From a virus (Duplodnaviria; Heunggongvirae; Uroviricota; Caudoviricetes), in IMG/VR virus record IMGVR_UViG_3300023290_000168: a stretch of DNA of 5,653 nt, one strand, 5' to 3'. Of this stretch, positions 730-5,653 are shown piece after piece. The notes beneath the pieces were generated by a model, which was not told where the DNA came from, made no database searches, and was given only the letters and a program-made list of their open reading frames with translations. The position numbers and the translations under genes were made by a program. Within the stretch, counting starts at the first letter, position 1. Every line of letters begins with the position of its first letter.

Positions 730-2067
730 TTAGATGATAAATGACAGCAGGAATGTGCCCGCCAGAGCGACGACTGAAGCGATAAATGTCGCTGTCGTAT
801 AGTATTTAAATGTTTCATTGAGCGTAGCACCGCAATATTGCTTCACCAGCCAGAAAAGCGAGTCCGTAACGATCGTGCAGCCAATCGCACCTGAACCGAT
901 GGCAATTGCAATAATTTCCGGGCTGATGTCGGGATACAGCGGCAGCATGGGTGCAACAATTGCCGTTGCCCCCATCATTGCCACCGTAGCGGAGCCCACT
1001 GCAGCATGCAGAATAAGTGCCACCAACCAGGCCAGAAGAATCGGGTGCATATGCATATTGGAGAGAATAACTGCCAGCGTATCAGCGAGACTGCTGCTTT
1101 TTAAAATGGCGTTGAATGCGCCTCCGGCCCCGATAATCAGCAAAATATTAGCAATAGAACCGAAACCATTTTCCGTATGTGTGAGCATCGTCCCCATGCT
1201 CATATGCTGACGTATACCCAACACATAATAGGCGACAAATACGGCGATAAACATGGCAGTGATAGGGTTGCCAATAAACTCAAGCAAGGTATACAAACCA
1301 CTCTCACGCGCCATATTCAATTCGGCAATCGTTTTAACCAACATCAGCGCAATGGGTAGCAGTATGGTGAATAACGTTGCGCCTAATGACGGTAGTGTTT
1401 TTTCATCGCGAACTTTGAGATCGGCAAACTCTGTGGGTACAGGTTTAAAGGGCAGTCGTTGCCCCAGAAATTTAAGGAAAAGTGGGCCACCGATCAGTGA
1501 TGCCATCAGCCCAACCAGCAAACCGTAGACGATCACCGAACCGATATCTGCGCCCAGCTTATTGGCAACATATAAAGCAGCCGGATGTGGGGGAACCACG
1601 CAGTGCACTGCCATCAATGCGGTACACAGCGGAATGGCCAGCTTTAACAATGAGGTATTGGTTTTTTTGGCAATTGAAAAAGCCAGAGGAATCAATAGCA
1701 CGACGCCCACTTCAACAAACAGCGTGATGCCGCAAATCAGGCCAACCAGCACCATAATGACATCAGCTGAAAGCCACCGGCAGCGTTGAAGTGTCAGACC
1801 AATTCTTTCTGCGGCCCCGGATACTTCCATCATTTTTCCCAGTATCGTGCCAAGGCCGATAACCGCAGCGAGGAACCCCAGCGTTCCGCCAATTCCACTT
1901 TCAATAGCATTTACCATATCCAGTGGCCCCATGCCCATCATCGTTCCCACGAAGAAGCTGGCCAGCAACAGCGCCAGAAACGGGTGGAATTTGAACTTCA
2001 CGATGGTCAGTACAATTAACACGATGCTGATAAGCAGCGTGCTCACAACCCAGATTTGAGAGTGCAT
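730..2067 (-). CDS. dsdX: D-serine transporter, GntP-family permease (445 aa)
   Basis: Track ORF of 445 aa, very hydrophobic multi-pass membrane protein ([35 protein letters not shown]...). ATG at 2067-2065 is preceded by a GAAGGTGAGAT purine-rich RBS; stop TAA at 732-730. The sequence matches E. coli DsdX as I recall it, and the position between dsdC and dsdA is the canonical arrangement. Confidence 0.92.
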
Positions 2068-2284
2068 ATCTCACCTTCCCCTGTGATTAACCTGATGATA
2101 TTGGACAAAAAAACAACGCAGGCTGACAAACGATAAAATTTGCCTTTCACGTGAGCTAAATTGCATCAATGGAGTGATTTACATCTAAAAATGAAGGTGA
2201 ATTGAGATATGGTTCACTTTAGCTCACCTAGAAGCTGAAATTTTGCCGCTATTTTTTTACACTTAAGAGAAAAATGAGGTGATT
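2068..2284. promoter_or_regulatory. Divergent dsdX / dsdC control region (promoters and presumed DsdC binding sites)
   Basis: A 217-bp AT-rich spacer between divergently oriented start codons (dsdX ATG at 2067 on minus, dsdC ATG at 2285 on plus). It contains a perfect 10-bp inverted repeat, GTGAGCTAAA at 2151-2160 and TTTAGCTCAC at 2218-2227. LysR-type regulators typically bind dyad sites in such divergent regions. Exact -35/-10 elements are not confidently assignable by eye. Confidence 0.5.
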
Positions 2285-3220
2285 ATGGAACCCCTTCGTG
2301 AAATAAGAAATCGACTGCTTAACGGCTGGCAACTATCAAAACTGCATACTTTTGAAGTGGCTGCCAGGCATCAGTCCTTCGCCCTTGCGGCAGAGGAATT
2401 GTCGCTGAGCCCCAGTGCGGTAAGTCACCGTATCAATCAGCTGGAAGAAGAATTAGGTATTCAGTTGTTTGTTCGTTCCCATCGCAAAGTGGAATTAACG
2501 CACGAGGGGAAACGTGTTTATTGGGCGCTAAAATCGTCGCTGGATACCCTGAATCAGGAAATTCTGGATATCAAAAATCAGGAGTTATCGGGAACGTTAA
2601 CGTTGTATTCCCGGCCCTCTATCGCCCAATGCTGGTTGGTGCCCGCATTAGGTGACTTTACACGCCGATATCCGTCTATTTCGCTCACCGTGCTCACTGG
2701 TAATGACAATGTCAATTTGCAACGTGCCGGAATCGATTTGGCGATCTACTTTGATGATGCGCCGTCAGCGCAATTGGCTCATCACTTTCTGATGGATGAA
2801 GAAATCCTGCCAGTTTGCAGCCCGGAGTACGCTCATAGACATGATTTAACCAACACGGTAATTAACCTGCGTCACTGTACGTTGCTCCATGACAGACAGG
2901 CATGGAGCAACGACTCCGGTACGGATGAATGGCATAGTTGGGCGCAACATTATGCGGTTAATTTGCCGACATCTTCTGGAATTGGCTTTGATCGCTCTGA
3001 TTTAGCCGTTATCGCCGCGATGAATCATATTGGGGTGGCGATGGGAAGGAAACGTCTGGTACAAAAAAGGCTTGCCAGTGGTGAGCTCGTCGCGCCGTTT
3101 GGCGATATGACGGTGAAATGCCATCAGCATTATTACATCACTACATTACCGGGCAGGCAGTGGCCAAAAATTGAGGCATTTATTACTTGGTTAAGAGAAC
3201 AGGTAAAAACCACTTCATAA
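2285..3220 (+). CDS. dsdC: LysR-type transcriptional activator of D-serine utilisation genes (311 aa)
   Basis: Track ORF 2279..3220 begins at a GTG (MIMEPL...). I prefer the ATG at 2285 (MEPLREIRNRLLNGWQL...), which has AGGTG about 5 nt upstream and gives 311 aa. N-terminal LysR-family HTH (TFEVAARHQSFALAAEELSLSPSAVSHRINQLEEELG) followed by a co-inducer-binding domain. Divergent from dsdXA, as expected for DsdC. Confidence 0.9.
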   Translation: MEPLREIRNRLLNGWQLSKLHTFEVAARHQSFALAAEELSLSPSAVSHRINQLEEELGIQLFVRSHRKVELTHEGKRVYWALKSSLDTLNQEILDIKNQELSGTLTLYSRPSIAQCWLVPALGDFTRRYPSISLTVLTGNDNVNLQRAGIDLAIYFDDAPSAQLAHHFLMDEEILPVCSPEYAHRHDLTNTVINLRHCTLLHDRQAWSNDSGTDEWHSWAQHYAVNLPTSSGIGFDRSDLAVIAAMNHIGVAMGRKRLVQKRLASGELVAPFGDMTVKCHQHYYITTLPGRQWPKIEAFITWLREQVKTTS

Positions 3221-3319
3221 TGAATAAGACCACGAGTTCCTGGTGTGCCTTATTCGGCATTGCTAGTGCGAATTTAATAATTTACGGTTTTTACGTGGTT
3301 TTAGGGATAAACACAAGAA

Positions 3320-3334
3320 TGGTGTCCCCTGCAG
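3320..3334 (-). mobile_element. Prophage attR core: displaced 3'-terminal fragment of tRNA-Arg (argW), bacterial/prophage junction
   Basis: Minus strand of 3320-3334 reads CTGCAGGGGACACCA, which matches the acceptor 3' strand plus discriminator and CCA of E. coli argW as I recall it (...GGTTCGATTCCTGCAGGGGACACCA). Similarity stops at 3335. An excisionase gene lies immediately on the prophage side and dsdC on the chromosomal side, the known context of the KplE1/CPS-53 attR. No complete tRNA is present. Confidence 0.6.
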
Positions 3335-3407
3335 ACATCTACTTGAGGCGGCAGGGGATTGATTGGAATGGTGTTTTTTAGATGTGAGAAATATTTTACC
3401 CGCTATT

Positions 3408-3608
3408 TTACCCATTGGCGCGGCTTAAGAGCTTATTTTTGAATTCACAATGGTCACGATATAACCATCTTGCTCGCCCGTGGATAACTTTGGCTTTTGG
3501 CAGGTCGCCGGACTTAATCCGGTCATAGATGAAGGTTTTACCGAAGCCAGTATCGGCCATGATGAATTTCAAATCAACCAGTGAATCAGGTTGTAGTTCG
3601 TGTTGCAT
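3408..3608 (-). CDS. torI: Prophage excisionase / recombination directionality factor (winged-helix Xis family), also known as Tor response-regulator inhibitor (66 aa)
   Basis: Track ORF of 66 aa, MQHELQPDSLVDLKFIMADTGFGKTFIYDRIKSGDLPKAKVIHGRARWLYRDHCEFKNKLLSRANG, which I recognise as TorI of KplE1. Its size and its position as the first gene inside attR fit an Xis. ATG at 3608-3606, stop TAA at 3410-3408. Confidence 0.85.
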   Translation of the reverse strand: MQHELQPDSLVDLKFIMADTGFGKTFIYDRIKSGDLPKAKVIHGRARWLYRDHCEFKNKLLSRANG

Positions 3609-3627
3609 GAGTGCTATCTCCGAATAG

Positions 3628-3643
3628 GGAATCGAACCTGCAA
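3628..3643 (-). other. tRNA-Arg T-arm-like fragment (16 nt) within the prophage arm, upstream of torI
   Basis: Minus strand of 3628-3643 reads TTGCAGGTTCGATTCC, identical to the variable-loop/T-arm segment of argW as I recall it. The flanking bases do not complete a T-stem, so this is a fragment and not a tRNA gene. Confidence 0.4.
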
Positions 3644-3650
3644 ATCAGGC

Positions 3651-3673
3651 AATAAAAAACCGCCATCAGGCGG
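3651..3673 (-). terminator. Rho-independent terminator (minus strand) after the 55-codon ORF and upstream of torI
   Basis: Minus strand reads GCCGCC-tgat-GGCGGt followed by TTTTTTATT (stem 3660-3673 region, U-tract from 3651-3659). The TGA stop of the 55-codon ORF sits in the loop. Confidence 0.6.
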
Positions 3674-3833
3674 CTTGGTGTTCTTTCAGTTCTTCAATTC
3701 GAATATTAGTTACGTCTGCATGTGCTATCTGCGCCCACAGCATCCAGTGGTCATAGCAGTCGTTGATGTTCTCTGCTTCGATAACTCTGTTGAATGGCTC
3801 TCCATTCCATTCACCTGTGACTCGGAAGTGCAT
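3666..3833 (-). CDS. Hypothetical small protein (55 aa), prophage-encoded
   Basis: Not in the track (below its size cutoff). My own translation from ATG 3833-3831 gives MHFRVTGEWNGEPFNRVIEAENINDCYDHWMLWAQIAHADVTNIRIEELKEHQAA, ending at TGA 3668-3666. GGAG lies 7 nt upstream of the ATG (plus-strand CTCC at 3841-3844) and an intrinsic terminator follows directly. Caveat: two terminator-like hairpins sit immediately upstream and there is no obvious dedicated promoter. Confidence 0.4.
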   Translation of the reverse strand: MHFRVTGEWNGEPFNRVIEAENINDCYDHWMLWAQIAHADVTNIRIEELKEHQAA

Positions 3834-3841
3834 TTATCATC

Positions 3842-3868
3842 TCCATAAAACAAAACCCGCCGTAGCGA
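3842..3868 (-). terminator. Terminator-like hairpin 2 (minus strand): CTCGC-tacg-GCGGG followed by TTTTGTTTTAT
   Basis: Minus-strand stem at 3855-3868 (5 bp, one G-U pair, 4-nt loop) followed by a U-rich tract at 3842-3854, immediately upstream of the RBS of the 55-codon ORF. Confidence 0.45.
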
Positions 3869-3872
3869 GTTC

Positions 3873-3901
3873 AGATAAAAGAAATCCCCGCGAGTGCGAG
3901 G
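3873..3901 (-). terminator. Rho-independent terminator 1 (minus strand) ending the coupled cassette: CCTCGC-actc-GCGGGG followed by ATTTCTTTTATCT
   Basis: Minus-strand stem at 3886-3901 (6 bp, GC-rich, one G-U pair, 4-nt loop), beginning 4 nt after the stop of the ASCH-fold gene, then a U-rich tract at 3873-3885. Confidence 0.5.
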
Positions 3902-3905
3902 ATTA

Positions 3906-4190
3906 TCATTCATTGTCGATATTCACCTTTATAGCGAACACCTTTACCGGTTTATCGCCGAAGTGCGGATGTGTGATTGTCTTGATTTCATATCCGTCAT
4001 ACGGGACGTCAATTCTGCGGCTGGAATCGTCGCGCTTCGGATATCCCTTTGTGATAATCAGGCGGTCATACTCGCGGAACATAATTCGCTTATTCCAGTA
4101 GTCATTACACAGGCGATACTCTTCCGTTTTCTCTCCGCGAATCATGGCATCGAAGTATTCACCTTTAACGGCAAGTTGCAGGTTAGCCAC
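3906..4190 (-). CDS. ASCH-domain (PUA-like fold) protein, 94 aa, prophage-encoded
   Basis: Track ORF of 94 aa, MANLQLAVKGEYFDAMIRGEKTEEYRL..., with a G19-x-K21-x-x-E24-x-R26 match to the ASCH signature GxKxxExR. GTG start at 4190-4188 preceded by AAGGAGG with a 6-nt spacer; stop TGA at 3908-3906. The start overlaps the end of the upstream gene by 8 nt. Confidence 0.75.
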   Translation of the reverse strand: MANLQLAVKGEYFDAMIRGEKTEEYRLCNDYWNKRIMFREYDRLIITKGYPKRDDSSRRIDVPYDGYEIKTITHPHFGDKPVKVFAIKVNIDNE

Positions 4191-4467
4191 GACCTTCCTC
4201 CTTTGGCTTGTGAATTTGTATCGTCATGCCGCTTTGAGTGGTGACTACAACGACAGAACCAGGCTGAAGACTGTTAAGATTGAATGCTTCGTAAAACGAA
4301 GCCAAGGCCAGCGCTTTTTTATTCTTTCGGTTCCACCAACGCCATCCATTGCTACAGGCTACACTGACAATCCACTGTCCACTCCTGTAAGCCATATAAA
4401 ACCAGATGAGCAAAACCTGAATGAATGCTATCCAGTCAATAATCGTATATTTCGCGAAGGAGACCAT
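4183..4467 (-). CDS. Small single-pass membrane protein (94 aa), hypothetical, prophage-encoded
   Basis: Track ORF 4183..4470 begins at a TTG. I prefer the ATG at 4467-4465 (MVSFAKYTIIDWIAFIQVLLIWFYMAYRSGQW...), which has AGGAGG 7 nt upstream. One N-terminal hydrophobic helix (about residues 8-27) followed by a basic stretch (WRWWNRKNKK). The ATG overlaps the TGA of the upstream gene (TGATG). Confidence 0.6.
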   Translation of the reverse strand: MVSFAKYTIIDWIAFIQVLLIWFYMAYRSGQWIVSVACSNGWRWWNRKNKKALALASFYEAFNLNSLQPGSVVVVTTQSGMTIQIHKPKEEGRG

Positions 4468-5132
4468 CAATTAACCTCCTGCGGCGGTTCCGGTAGAGGC
4501 ATCCAGTACAAGGCGTTCCCTAACCACGATAAAGTGCCGTCGCTCAACTCCACGTATTCCCCTTGTACCTGTCCTGCCATATACTCGCCGTGCTTTGAAT
4601 AAATTAAAATCCAATCATCTTGAGCGGGCATTCGCTCACTACAGCTTATCCAACCATCCGGAGTTACCGGATAGTTGCCAGCCTCATACGCGACCCTTAT
4701 CCAGTGCATAAACATTTCAGTACTTACACATCCACAATCAACATCAATTTTGTCATGCTGCTGTTCCAGCCATTGCTCAAAAGTTAACTTGTAAGTTTGG
4801 CTTACAGGTTCGGCTTCCAGTTCTGCAATGCGCTTCTCTGCAGCTTCCAGCTCAACGCGCAGCTTCCCTACCGTTAGCGCAATTTCCTCGTTCTCCTGGT
4901 CGCGGCGTTTGATGTATTGCTGGTTTCTTTCCCGTTCATCCAGCAGCGCCAGCACGGTTTCTGGTCCGGTCAGAAATTTGAAGGCGTTGAGCGCATCAAT
5001 ATCCACACCGTAATCCTTAAGTTCCTGTTCACTTAACAAATCATCATCAACTGGCAACATTAACAGGCGTTCCATTGCCGGAATTGCACGTTCTGCCGCC
5101 TCACGCAGTGCCTGATAGTTAATTTTGGTCAT
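4467..5132 (-). CDS. Phage protein with N-terminal coiled-coil region and C-terminal DUF551-like domain (Ea22-like family), 221 aa
   Basis: Track ORF of 221 aa. N-terminus MTKINYQALREAAERA... and the coiled-coil-like VGKLRVELEAAEKRIAELEAE resemble Ea22-like prophage proteins. C-terminus WISCSERMPAQDDWILIY...LYWMPLPEPP matches the DUF551 pattern as I remember it. ATG at 5132-5130 with GGGGGA RBS; only 1 nt separates it from the stop of the upstream gene. Confidence 0.8.
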   Translation of the reverse strand: MTKINYQALREAAERAIPAMERLLMLPVDDDLLSEQELKDYGVDIDALNAFKFLTGPETVLALLDERERNQQYIKRRDQENEEIALTVGKLRVELEAAEKRIAELEAEPVSQTYKLTFEQWLEQQHDKIDVDCGCVSTEMFMHWIRVAYEAGNYPVTPDGWISCSERMPAQDDWILIYSKHGEYMAGQVQGEYVELSDGTLSWLGNALYWMPLPEPPQEVN

Positions 5133-5133
5133 A

Positions 5134-5433
5134 TCACATCCCCCTGAAGCCGTTGCATTTACGTAAAAAATCGCAGATATAGCCCTTCATTTTTTCGTGC
5201 CAATCTCGATCATTCCCATTGCACCAACCATCAGGTGGAGTCCAGTTTTCTATCAGAGCAGCCATTTTCTTTGCTTTCGCCGGAGTAGCTGTTGCGGTAT
5301 CGCAGTAATGACGAGTGTCAACCAACGTATCCATACCATCGATATCAAGTACGCAAAACCATGTGTGATTCGGCATTTCAACAGATGGTATTTGTTGCCC
5401 ACGTCGACGTTTATCAATAAGACATACAGTCAC
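5134..5433 (-). CDS. Hypothetical phage protein (99 aa), Cys-rich
   Basis: Track ORF of 99 aa, MTVCLIDKRRRGQQIPSVEMPNHTWFCVLDIDG... GTG start at 5433-5431 preceded by AAGGAGG with a 6-nt spacer. The start overlaps the stop of the upstream partial ORF (GTGA). Six cysteines. I recognise no domain. Confidence 0.65.
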   Translation of the reverse strand: MTVCLIDKRRRGQQIPSVEMPNHTWFCVLDIDGMDTLVDTRHYCDTATATPAKAKKMAALIENWTPPDGWCNGNDRDWHEKMKGYICDFLRKCNGFRGM

Positions 5434-5653
5434 TGGTTGCCTCCTTTGCGAAGCTGGGCAGCAAAGTCAACTAACCACTCAGTCATTTCAACCTTCCCTA
5501 CCAGGTCTGAACCAGGGTGCATACAGCAATCACTCTGCGCCGCTTTGAAATCCTTATACTCATATTCTTGGGCCACCAGATTTTTTGCAGCTTCTATAGC
5601 TGAACCGCCCCGGGAATCCTGGAGACTAAACTTCCTGAGAAAGAGGTAAACAG
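5430..5653 (-). CDS. Hypothetical phage protein, C-terminal 74 codons (5' end beyond right edge)
   Basis: Not in the track because it is edge-truncated. The minus-strand frame is open from the window edge to TGA at 5432-5430. My translation reads ...VYLFLRKFSLQDSRGGSAIEAAKNLVAQEYEYKDFKAAQSDCCMHPGSDLVGKVEMTEWLVDFAAQLRKGGNQ. Its stop overlaps the next gene's GTG, as in the rest of the cassette. Confidence 0.5.
   Translation of the reverse strand, partial: VYLFLRKFSLQDSRGGSAIEAAKNLVAQEYEYKDFKAAQSDCCMHPGSDLVGKVEMTEWLVDFAAQLRKGGNQ

What the first reader, a model, noticed from the sequence alone, without database searches (positions are those of the whole stretch)
3906..5653. Tightly coupled minus-strand cassette in the xis-proximal accessory region of the prophage: candidate uncharacterised module
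From the right edge down to 3906 the minus strand carries five ORFs joined by start/stop overlaps or a 1-nt gap: GTGA at 5430-5433, TGAtATG at 5130-5136, TGATG at 4465-4469, and an 8-nt overlap at 4183-4190. Each start has a strong Shine-Dalgarno embedded in the preceding gene (AAGGAGG before 5433 and before 4190, AGGAGG before 4467). The products are a partial hypothetical, a 99-aa Cys-rich protein, a 221-aa coiled-coil plus DUF551-like protein, a 94-aa single-pass membrane protein and a 94-aa ASCH-fold protein, and the unit ends in tandem intrinsic terminators. The location between the phage early genes and xis corresponds to the lambda b2/ea-type non-essential region, where phages carry host-interaction cargo. 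I cannot assign a function to this combination. A role in defence, anti-defence or superinfection exclusion is speculation, not something the sequence shows.
Basis: partly seen in the sequence, partly recalled or inferred. Interest (0 to 1): 0.6.

Follow-up and report, generated by a model that had tools for sequence, protein, structure and literature searches.

The report
Ordinary mosaic early genes of CUS-3-like prophage
The five tightly packed genes are the well-known, freely shuffled "ea / exo-xis" accessory genes at the far end of the early-left operon of a CUS-3-like (P22-like) E. coli prophage, not a dedicated new multi-gene system.

Summary

The "module" reading does not hold. The stretch is 99.9% identical to the published phages CUS-3 and phiv205-1. 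It is the xis-proximal end of their early-left operon, the counterpart of lambda's exo-xis region and P22's ea region.

The genes belong to catalogued phage families:
- an hkaH-like remnant
- DUF7739
- Ead/Ea22 + DUF551
- DUF4752
- a small ASCH-fold protein

They assort independently. Among 76 close ASCH loci only 12 carry the full set. In 50,697 phage records ASCH occurs in 332, DUF4752 in 70, DUF7739 in 20, and the whole cassette in 2. Diverged DUF7739 and DUF4752 homologues have other neighbours.

The 8-nt overlap before ASCH is the same behind about ten unrelated upstream genes, so it is a mosaic joint carrying the downstream gene's ribosome-binding site. PADLOC finds no defence system.

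- The last 53 bases of the window are an IS3-family end that truncates the first gene.
- A lambda-type orf55 follows the hairpins.
- The 221-aa protein carries a swapped-in 35-aa segment.

Individual functions remain unknown. Interest is low.

The parts
5601..5653 (+). Left terminal sequence of an IS3-family insertion element (TGAACCGCCCCGGG...GGTAAACAG). It interrupts the hkaH-like gene and separates the cassette from the rest of the early-left operon.
   Evidence: Identical to the sequence directly before the IS3-family transposase start in NZ_CP082067. CUS-3 continues with unrelated phage sequence at this point.
5430..5600 (-). C-terminal remnant (57 codons) of an hkaH-like early gene, truncated by the IS.
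   Evidence: Identical to the 3' end of CUS-3 hkaH. Matches the C-terminus of phrog_368, E 5.6e-16. No Pfam family, also for full-length CUS-3 HkaH.
5134..5433 (-). 99-aa DUF7739 protein (homologue of Sf6 gene 22). Small alpha/beta protein, function unknown.
4467..5132 (-). 221-aa Ea22-family protein. Residues 1-116 are the Ead/Ea22 N-terminal and coiled-coil part, 117-151 are a swapped-in 35-aa segment, and 152-221 are DUF551.
   Evidence: PF13935 E 4e-29 and PF04448 E 7e-11. Identical to the 190-aa CUS-3 protein except that 35 aa replace 'NELS'. The 35-aa segment is 100% identical at DNA level to DUF551 genes on E. coli plasmids and also occurs in other proteins.
4183..4467 (-). 94-aa DUF4752 protein (ST104 ORF7 type). 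N-terminal hydrophobic anchor, a conserved GWRWWNRK motif and a small C-terminal domain.
   Evidence: PF15944 E 3e-34 and phrog_667. Kyte-Doolittle peak 1.66 at residues 7-25 and pI 9.8. 43 clusters, many truncated.
3906..4190 (-). 94-aa ASCH / PUA-like-fold protein (ST104 ORF6 type).
3853..3904 (-). Two consecutive terminator-like hairpins with U-rich tails after ASCH.
   Evidence: -13.7 and -11.0 kcal/mol.
3666..3833 (-). 55-aa gene, homologue of lambda's xis-adjacent orf55. It continues the gene array and was not in the finding.
   Evidence: phrog_676 E 4e-40. 98% identical to the lambda protein, present in 86 phage records.
3657..3676 (-). Intrinsic terminator-like hairpin after orf55.
   Evidence: -13.0 kcal/mol.
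3408..3608 (-). Excisionase / TorI (recombination directionality factor of KplE1/Sf6/HK620-type prophages).
   Evidence: 100% identical to RefSeq 'response regulator inhibitor TorI'. phrog_66 excisionase.
3319..3334 (-). attR core CTGCAGGGGACACCAT, the prophage/chromosome boundary next to dsdC.
   Evidence: Identical to the annotated Sf6 attP core, the phiv205-1 attR and the 3' end of argW.

Best explanation
The stretch is the promoter-distal, xis-proximal end of the early-left (PL) operon of a CUS-3-like P22-like (Lederbergvirus) prophage. The prophage is integrated at argW next to dsdC. This is the same region as lambda's exo-xis region and P22's 'ea' region.

The ORFs are genuine small accessory genes from catalogued phage families: hkaH-like, DUF7739, Ead/Ea22+DUF551, DUF4752, ASCH, then orf55 and xis.

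In an intact phage they would be transcribed as part of the long N-antiterminated PL transcript, early after infection or induction. This is inferred from gene order in CUS-3 and from lambda biology. Each gene is translated from its own Shine-Dalgarno site, which sits inside the end of the preceding gene.

The start/stop overlaps are the conserved joints at which lambdoid phages swap gene modules. Each downstream module brings its own ribosome-binding site and start, and the upstream reading frame runs into them. The overlaps do not mark a multi-protein machine.

The genes therefore most likely act one by one as dispensable modulators of the host or of the lysis-lysogeny decision:
- The Ea22-type protein is a coiled-coil oligomer that favours lysogeny, as published for lambda and Stx-phage Ea22.
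- The ASCH protein is a PUA-like binder or processor of RNA or modified nucleotides.
- DUF7739 is a small protein-binding factor.
- DUF4752 is a membrane-anchored factor.
The last three roles are inferences from fold or sequence only.

In this particular genome an IS3-family element has cut the first gene and separated the array from its upstream promoter.
For: Identity of the region:
- 99.9% identity over the region to phages CUS-3 and phiv205-1, whose records place it downstream of N-ral-cIII-kil-erf-abc2(hkaJ)-hkaH on the same strand.
- dsdX/dsdC flank, torI/xis and the argW-type attR core are present.
- Ea22 Pfam hit and a 98%-identical lambda orf55.

Independent assortment:
- Only 2 of 561 matching phage records and 113 of 4,603 matching E. 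coli genomes carry at least 80% of the stretch.
- Phage-record counts are ASCH 332, DUF4752 70 and DUF7739 20.
- Of 76 close ASCH loci, 25 have DUF4752, 20 have DUF7739 and 12 have the full set.
- Diverged DUF4752 (58% identical) sits in a nin region without ASCH. Diverged DUF7739 (52-61%) sits in other early-left operons without any of the partners.

Joints:
- ASCH is preceded by about ten unrelated genes (DUF4752, Lar-like, TraR-like, DUF551 proteins and others).
- All use the same 8-nt or 1-nt overlap. They share only about 15 nt, (C)AGGAGGnnnnnCGTGGCTAA, which gives common ...QEVNRG / ...EEGRG C-termini.
- The Sf6 record annotates the gene 22/21 joint as a 'boundary sequence'.
- A module swap lies inside the 221-aa gene itself.

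Other:
- No sigma-70-like promoter on the minus strand of 3200-5653.
- No PADLOC system.
- Literature: Ea22 is pro-lysogenic, with a mosaic C-terminal domain that is DUF551 in variant V2 (PMC10834534, PMC7093339). Early operons of P22-like phages are highly mosaic (PMC2629481). Single exo-xis-region genes act alone on the host, for example Orf73/TraR (PMC9239242).
Against: - Functions of DUF7739, DUF4752 and the small ASCH protein are untested, and the roles given are inferences.
- DUF4752 is followed by ASCH in 34 of 38 close DUF4752 loci, so a two-gene link cannot be fully excluded.
- All four junctions in the cassette are tight, against 5 of the other 13 junctions in CUS-3's operon.
- Transcription from PL was not measured. 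The promoter scan is a crude consensus scan.
- The co-occurrence samples are the 80 closest relatives per anchor and are not phylogenetically corrected.
Confidence: 0.85

Rival explanations
1. The four or five genes form one co-functional cassette (defence, anti-defence or superinfection exclusion). Their translational coupling would set the stoichiometry of a complex.
For: - Four consecutive overlapping or 1-nt junctions with strong SDs, and terminator-like hairpins at the end.
- The full set recurs at about 99.9% identity in 113 E. coli genomes and 2 phages.
- The location is a region where phages keep host-interaction cargo.
Against: - The recurring copies are one recent lineage (CUS-3-like).
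- Outside it the genes assort freely, and diverged homologues have other neighbours.
- The junctions are shared with unrelated partners.
- There are no PADLOC hits and no internal promoter.
- The array continues with orf55 and xis rather than ending as a unit.
Confidence: 0.04
2. Only DUF4752 and ASCH form a functional pair: a membrane anchor plus a PUA-like reader. The other genes are unrelated.
For: - 34 of 38 close DUF4752 loci have ASCH directly downstream with the 8-nt overlap.
- The pair is also adjacent in ST104 (ORF7/ORF6).
Against: - Only 25 of 76 ASCH loci have DUF4752, and ASCH occurs in 332 phage records against 70 for DUF4752.
- DUF4752 homologues at 58% and 45% identity have no ASCH nearby; one lies in a nin region.
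- The close DUF4752 genes are at least 91% identical, so the adjacency can be plain recent linkage.
Confidence: 0.08
3. In this genome the array is a silent relic. The IS3-family insertion has cut it off from PL, and the prophage may be degraded, so the genes do nothing here.
For: - An IS end lies at 5601-5653, inside the hkaH-like gene.
- In the closest complete genome with an IS in this gene (inserted at another site), the IS is followed by a truncated injection-protein gene, meaning most of the prophage is deleted.
- No promoter-like site was found on the coding strand.
Against: - All four full-length ORFs are intact and 98-100% identical to those of the functional phage CUS-3.
- What lies beyond the IS in this genome is unknown.
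- Read-through across the IS, or weak promoters missed by the scan, remain possible.
- This rival concerns activity here, not what the genes are.
Confidence: 0.3

Closest known systems
Early-left operon end of phage CUS-3 (CP000711, ECRS218_0057-0063) and phiv205-1 (MN340231)
   Same: 99.9% nucleotide identity. Same genes in the same order, with the same overlaps, terminators, orf55 and xis side.
   Different: The window's Ea22-type gene carries a 35-aa replacement (221 aa against 190 aa). An IS3-family element truncates hkaH. The CUS-3 record ends at a 16-mer before xis, whereas the argW-type attR core lies beyond xis.
Lambda / Stx-phage exo-xis region (xis-orf55-ea8.5-ea22-orf61-orf63-orf60a-exo)
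   Same: Same position between the recombination genes and xis on the PL transcript. It has an Ea22-family protein with the Ead_Ea22 N-terminus and, as in Stx 'Ea22 V2', a DUF551 C-terminus. It has a 98%-identical orf55. The region is non-essential and mosaic (PMC10834534, PMC7093339, PMC3824215).
   Different: There are no ea8.5, orf61, orf63 or orf60a homologues. DUF7739, DUF4752 and ASCH take their place. The pro-lysogenic effect is shown only for lambda/Stx Ea22, not for this protein.
P22-like 'ea' region as in Sf6 genes 18-22, HK620 hka genes and ST104 ORF6-8
   Same: Sf6 gene 22 is DUF7739 (92% identical) and gene 21 is Ea22-like. ST104 ORF6/7/8 are ASCH/DUF4752/Ea22-like at about 96% DNA identity. 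Annotated boundary sequences lie at the same joints.
   Different: Each phage holds a different subset and order-preserving mix. For example, Sf6 has a Lar-like gene and gene 19 instead of DUF4752 and ASCH.
yfdQ-yfdR-yfdS-yfdT cluster of cryptic prophage CPS-53/KplE1 (E. coli K-12)
   Same: Same chromosomal site (argW...torI-dsdC) and same position next to torI. YfdS is a DUF551 protein (PMC4776307).
   Different: Different genes otherwise. YfdR is an HD-domain DnaA binder and YfdQ is DUF2302. There is no evidence that the window's genes affect replication initiation.
ASCH / PUA-like small proteins (E. faecalis 3IUW, P. horikoshii PH0355, E. coli YqfB ac4C amidohydrolase)
   Different: Sequence similarity is below Pfam's threshold. 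Catalytic residues were not examined, and no activity is known.

Membership tests
CUS-3-like Lederbergvirus prophage at argW, early-left operon | Near-identical DNA to the reference phage over the region | tested here: met
   99.9% identity over 83-93% of 2,254 nt to CUS-3 and phiv205-1.
CUS-3-like Lederbergvirus prophage at argW, early-left operon | Integration at argW next to dsdC, with the 16-nt core and xis/torI at the attR end | tested here: met
   dsdX and dsdC at 730-3220. Core CTGCAGGGGACACCAT at 3319-3334, equal to the Sf6 attP core and the argW 3' end. TorI is 100% identical.
CUS-3-like Lederbergvirus prophage at argW, early-left operon | Continuity with upstream early genes (abc2, erf, kil, cIII, N, PL) | tested here: not met
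   The window runs into an IS3-family end at 5601, inside hkaH. What lies beyond is not in the window.
Lambda-type exo-xis / ea accessory region | Ea22-family gene and orf55 next to xis, on the same strand as xis | tested here: met
   PF13935 E 4e-29. orf55 is 98% identical to lambda's. Gene order.
Lambda-type exo-xis / ea accessory region | Early PL transcription; influence on the lysis-lysogeny decision | not testable with these tools
   Known only from the literature for lambda and Phi24B (PMC4195576, PMC7093339).
Ead/Ea22 family (PF13935) with DUF551 (PF04448) | Scores above Pfam gathering thresholds | tested here: met
   102.3 bits against a cut-off of 27, and 43.2 bits against 22.
ASCH domain (PF04266) | Sequence score above the Pfam gathering threshold | tested here: not met
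   14.3 bits against 21.2, E 0.068, N-terminal 23 residues only. Only 3 of 55 family members reach E<=0.01. The profile against PDB finds 3iuw only at E 0.84.
ASCH domain (PF04266) | ASCH / PUA-like beta-barrel fold | tested here: met
Known anti-phage defence systems (PADLOC-DB 2.0) | Any cassette protein matching a defence-system model | tested here: not met
   No hit better than E 0.004, and that one is a coiled-coil match to PbeC. Only xis matches mad1.
Conserved multi-gene module (operon inherited as a unit) | Members co-occur across divergent genomes | tested here: not met
   The full set is confined to the CUS-3-like lineage.
DNA-mimic proteins (DMP12-like) | Strongly acidic surface / low pI | tested here: not met
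Cys-cluster metal-binding proteins (for the 99-aa protein) | Conserved Cys ligands | tested here: not met
   Only C93 is invariant. C27, C44, C71 and C87 are replaced by K, N, V/I/Y and V/I in homologues.

The most novel reading that the evidence does not exclude
One or more of the individually mobile genes may be an unrecognised host- or defence-directed inhibitor. The best candidate is DUF7739. Its confident model most resembles small protein-binding inhibitors: the CdiI immunity protein and the DMP12 HU-binding mimic. Alternatively, the DUF4752-ASCH pair may act together as a membrane-tethered nucleic-acid reader, for example in exclusion of other phages.
Probability: 0.1. Interest if true: 0.45.

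Novelty: already known. Interest (0 to 1): 0.12.

Why it matters
It matters little as a discovery. The region, its genes and its mosaic behaviour are already in published phage genomes and in Pfam/PHROGs.

The result has three uses:
- It removes a false lead. Tight start/stop overlap in lambdoid early operons marks recombination joints, not functional complexes.
- It records that four very widespread enterobacterial prophage gene families still have no known function.
- It gives confident models for two of them. The small ASCH protein is confirmed as PUA-like, and DUF7739 has an immunity-protein-like fold. These could guide single-gene experiments.

Tried and rejected
- Sequence searches of all four proteins against PDB: nothing significant.
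- A 55-sequence ASCH profile against PDB: only 3iuw at E 0.84.
- NCBIfam: no hits.
- PADLOC: no system.
- Rfam at E<=1 and a tRNA scan of the window: nothing credible.
- Foldseek of the DUF7739 model against viral structures: only a 40-aa fragment of itself.
- The AFDB library was unavailable.
- DNA-mimic reading of DUF7739: rejected on charge.
- Zn-binding reading of its cysteines: rejected on conservation.
- An obligate DUF4752-ASCH link was considered and judged unlikely, but not excluded, because diverged DUF4752 genes lack ASCH.
- Long antisense ORFs on the plus strand (3894-4244, 4144-4602, 5197-5649): no Pfam hits. The one PHROG hit (phrog_20945) corresponds to a CUS-3 annotation opposite the ASCH gene and is taken as an annotation artefact.
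Full report
**What is in the window.**
- The left half holds the E. coli chromosomal genes dsdX (730-2067, minus) and dsdC (2279-3220, plus).
- From 3319 rightwards the sequence is prophage.
- The 16-mer CTGCAGGGGACACCAT at 3319-3334 is identical to the annotated attP core of Sf6, to the attR of phiv205-1 and to the 3' end of argW.
- Next comes the excisionase TorI (3408-3608), 100% identical to the RefSeq protein of that name.
- Then, all on the minus strand: a 55-aa gene (3666-3833), a 94-aa gene (3906-4190), a 94-aa gene (4183-4467), a 221-aa gene (4467-5132), a 99-aa gene (5134-5433) and a partial ORF running to the edge.

**Checking the observation.**
- Every coordinate in the finding is correct: GTGA at 5430-5433, TGAtATG at 5130-5136, TGATG at 4465-4469 and the 8-nt overlap at 4183-4190.
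- AAGGAGG precedes the starts at 5433 and 4190, and AGGAGG precedes 4467.
- Two terminator-like hairpins follow the ASCH gene, at 3904-3883 and 3872-3853. They fold at -13.7 and -11.0 kcal/mol, far better than shuffles.
  - First, the array does not stop at the hairpins. The second hairpin's U-tract runs into the SD of the 55-aa gene, which is followed by a third terminator (3676-3657) and then xis.
  - Second, the last 53 bases (5601-5653) are the end of an IS3-family element. They are identical to the sequence in front of the IS3 transposase in strain MS20673, whereas CUS-3 continues with phage sequence there. Only the last 57 codons of the 'partial hypothetical' are therefore phage sequence.
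  - Third, the six cysteines of the 99-aa protein are not conserved. Only C93 is invariant in 22 homologues.

**Identity of the region.**
- The stretch 3400-5653 is 99.9% identical to phage CUS-3 (E. coli RS218) and phage phiv205-1. Both are Lederbergvirus (P22-like).
- In their records these genes lie downstream of N, ral, cIII, kil, erf, abc2/hkaJ and hkaH on one strand. This makes them the far end of the early-left operon.
- The 221-aa protein has the Ead/Ea22 family N-terminus (PF13935, E 4e-29) and a DUF551 C-terminus (PF04448, E 7e-11). Goddard et al. describe the same architecture for Stx-phage 'Ea22 V2' (PMC10834534).
- The 55-aa gene is 98% identical to lambda's own xis-adjacent ORF.
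- The region is thus the homologue of lambda's exo-xis region and P22's ea region. It is not the homologue of b2, which from textbook knowledge lies on the other side of att.
- The other genes are DUF7739 (PF24881, Sf6 gene 22), DUF4752 (PF15944, ST104 ORF7) and the protein RefSeq calls 'ASCH domain-containing' (ST104 ORF6).

**Is it a unit?** No.
- Of 561 phage records that match some part, 2 carry at least 80% of it. Of 4,603 matching complete E. coli genomes, 113 do.
- By tblastn over 50,697 phage records, the ASCH protein occurs in 332 records, including Salmonella, Klebsiella and Ralstonia phages. DUF4752 occurs in 70 and DUF7739 in 20.
- I fetched the 80 closest IMG/VR loci for each of three anchors and mapped all segments.
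  - Of 76 assessable ASCH loci (all at least 96% identical to the query), 25 have DUF4752, 20 have DUF7739, 51 have an Ead N-terminus and 12 have the full set.
  - Of 38 DUF4752 loci, 3 have DUF7739.
- More diverged homologues settle the point.
  - A 58%-identical DUF4752 lies in a nin region between replication genes and ninB.
  - A 45%-identical DUF4752 has no ASCH nearby.
  - DUF7739 homologues at 52-61% identity sit in early-left operons of other prophages with none of the partners.
- Even the 221-aa gene is a recombinant. Residues 117-151 replace four residues of the CUS-3 protein.
- That segment is 100% identical at DNA level to part of DUF551 genes on about 19 E. coli plasmids. It also occurs in otherwise different proteins.
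- No complete E. coli genome has this exact combination.

**What the overlaps are.**
- In the ASCH loci the gene immediately upstream belongs to about ten unrelated kinds. They include DUF4752, a Lar-like zinc ribbon, a TraR/DksA-type protein, an 86-aa protein and various DUF551 proteins.
- The junction is nevertheless always the same 8-nt (or 1-nt) overlap.
- Nucleotide similarity between these loci stops about 15-20 nt upstream of the GTG. The shared part is (C)AGGAGGnnnnnCGTGGCTAA, which is ASCH's own ribosome-binding site and start.
- Unrelated upstream proteins therefore end in ...QEVNRG or ...EEGRG. The DUF551 gene of the window ends with the same CAGGAGGTTAA.
- The Sf6 record annotates the gene 22/gene 21 joint as a 'boundary sequence'. 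Published comparisons describe the early operons of P22-like phages as highly mosaic (PMC2629481).
- Tight packing is also ordinary here. Nine of 17 junctions in CUS-3's early-left operon are overlaps or 1-nt gaps (coordinates). A plasmid array of Ea22-like, zinc-finger and DUF551 genes shows six tight junctions in a row.

**The proteins individually.**
- *ASCH protein.*
  - Sequence evidence is sub-threshold: Pfam E 0.068, and a profile against PDB reaches only E 0.84.
The family is large, with 737 representatives.
- *DUF7739.*
  - This is a narrow enterobacterial family of 46 clusters.
  - Its model is confident (pLDDT 86.8, pTM 0.80).
  - Its pI of 7.6 rules out a DNA mimic.
  - A role as a small protein-binding factor is a weak inference.
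- *DUF4752.*
  - It has a hydrophobic N-terminus (Kyte-Doolittle 1.66), an invariant GWRWWNR motif and a basic C-terminal half.
  - Many database copies are truncated.
- *Searches that gave nothing.*
  - None of the proteins matches a PADLOC model or NCBIfam.
  - No promoter-like site lies on the coding strand.
  - No Rfam family is present.

**Most likely mechanism.**
- *Shown:* gene identities, synteny with a known phage, independent assortment, and the shared-joint structure.
- *Inferred:* in an intact phage these genes are read from PL under N antitermination, early after infection or induction. Each is translated from its own SD, and each acts alone as a dispensable modulator. Published examples from the same region fit this, namely Ea22 (pro-lysogenic) and Orf73/TraR (binds RNA polymerase) (PMC7093339, PMC9239242).
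- In this genome the IS insertion probably uncouples the array from PL. In the nearest complete genome with an IS in this gene (at a different site), most of the prophage beyond it is deleted.

**Verdict.**
- The feature is already known as the mosaic ea/exo-xis tail of the early-left operon of CUS-3-like prophages.
- What remains open is the function of each gene family, not the existence of a new system.

Noticed in passing
window 5601-5653: The end of an IS3-family insertion sequence (TGAACCGCCCCGGGAATCC...GGTAAACAG) is inserted in the hkaH-like gene. This exact junction is not present as one piece in any of 5,426 complete E. coli genomes. Three genomes have an IS of this type about 200 nt further into the same gene.
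   Followed up: yes
window 3628-3643 and 3319-3334: Two 16-mers that are contiguous in tRNA gene argW flank xis/torI, 294 nt apart. TTGCAGGTTCGATTCC is the T-arm and CTGCAGGGGACACCAT is the acceptor end. The CUS-3 record labels the first as 'attR core', while Sf6 and phiv205-1 label the second. Why the phage carries the T-arm piece upstream of xis is unexplained.
   Followed up: partly
window 4680-4784 (residues 117-151 of the 221-aa protein): A 35-aa segment is absent from CUS-3. It is 100% identical in DNA to DUF551 genes carried mostly on E. coli plasmids of 27-110 kb. There a similar tightly overlapping array of Ea22-like, zinc-finger and DUF551 genes occurs.
   Followed up: partly
window 3408-3608: The excisionase/TorI matches the PADLOC model mad1 of the MADS defence system at E 7.6e-14. 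This is presumably shared AlpA/Xis-type HTH ancestry, not a defence gene.
   Followed up: no
window 3894-4244 (+ strand): A 116-aa ORF antisense to the ASCH gene matches phrog_20945 (E 4e-65) and is annotated as a CDS in CUS-3 (ECRS218_0062). It has no Pfam hit and is probably a propagated annotation artefact.
   Followed up: partly
window 3666-3833: A 55-aa gene between the tandem hairpins and a strong terminator is 98% identical to lambda's xis-adjacent ORF and is present in 86 phage records. Its function is unknown.
   Followed up: partly
IMG/VR loci L020 and others; proteins P0182-P0187: Many DUF4752 copies are truncated or frameshifted to a 51-56-aa C-terminal form (phrog_16281). This suggests frequent decay, or a shorter alternative product.
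   Followed up: no
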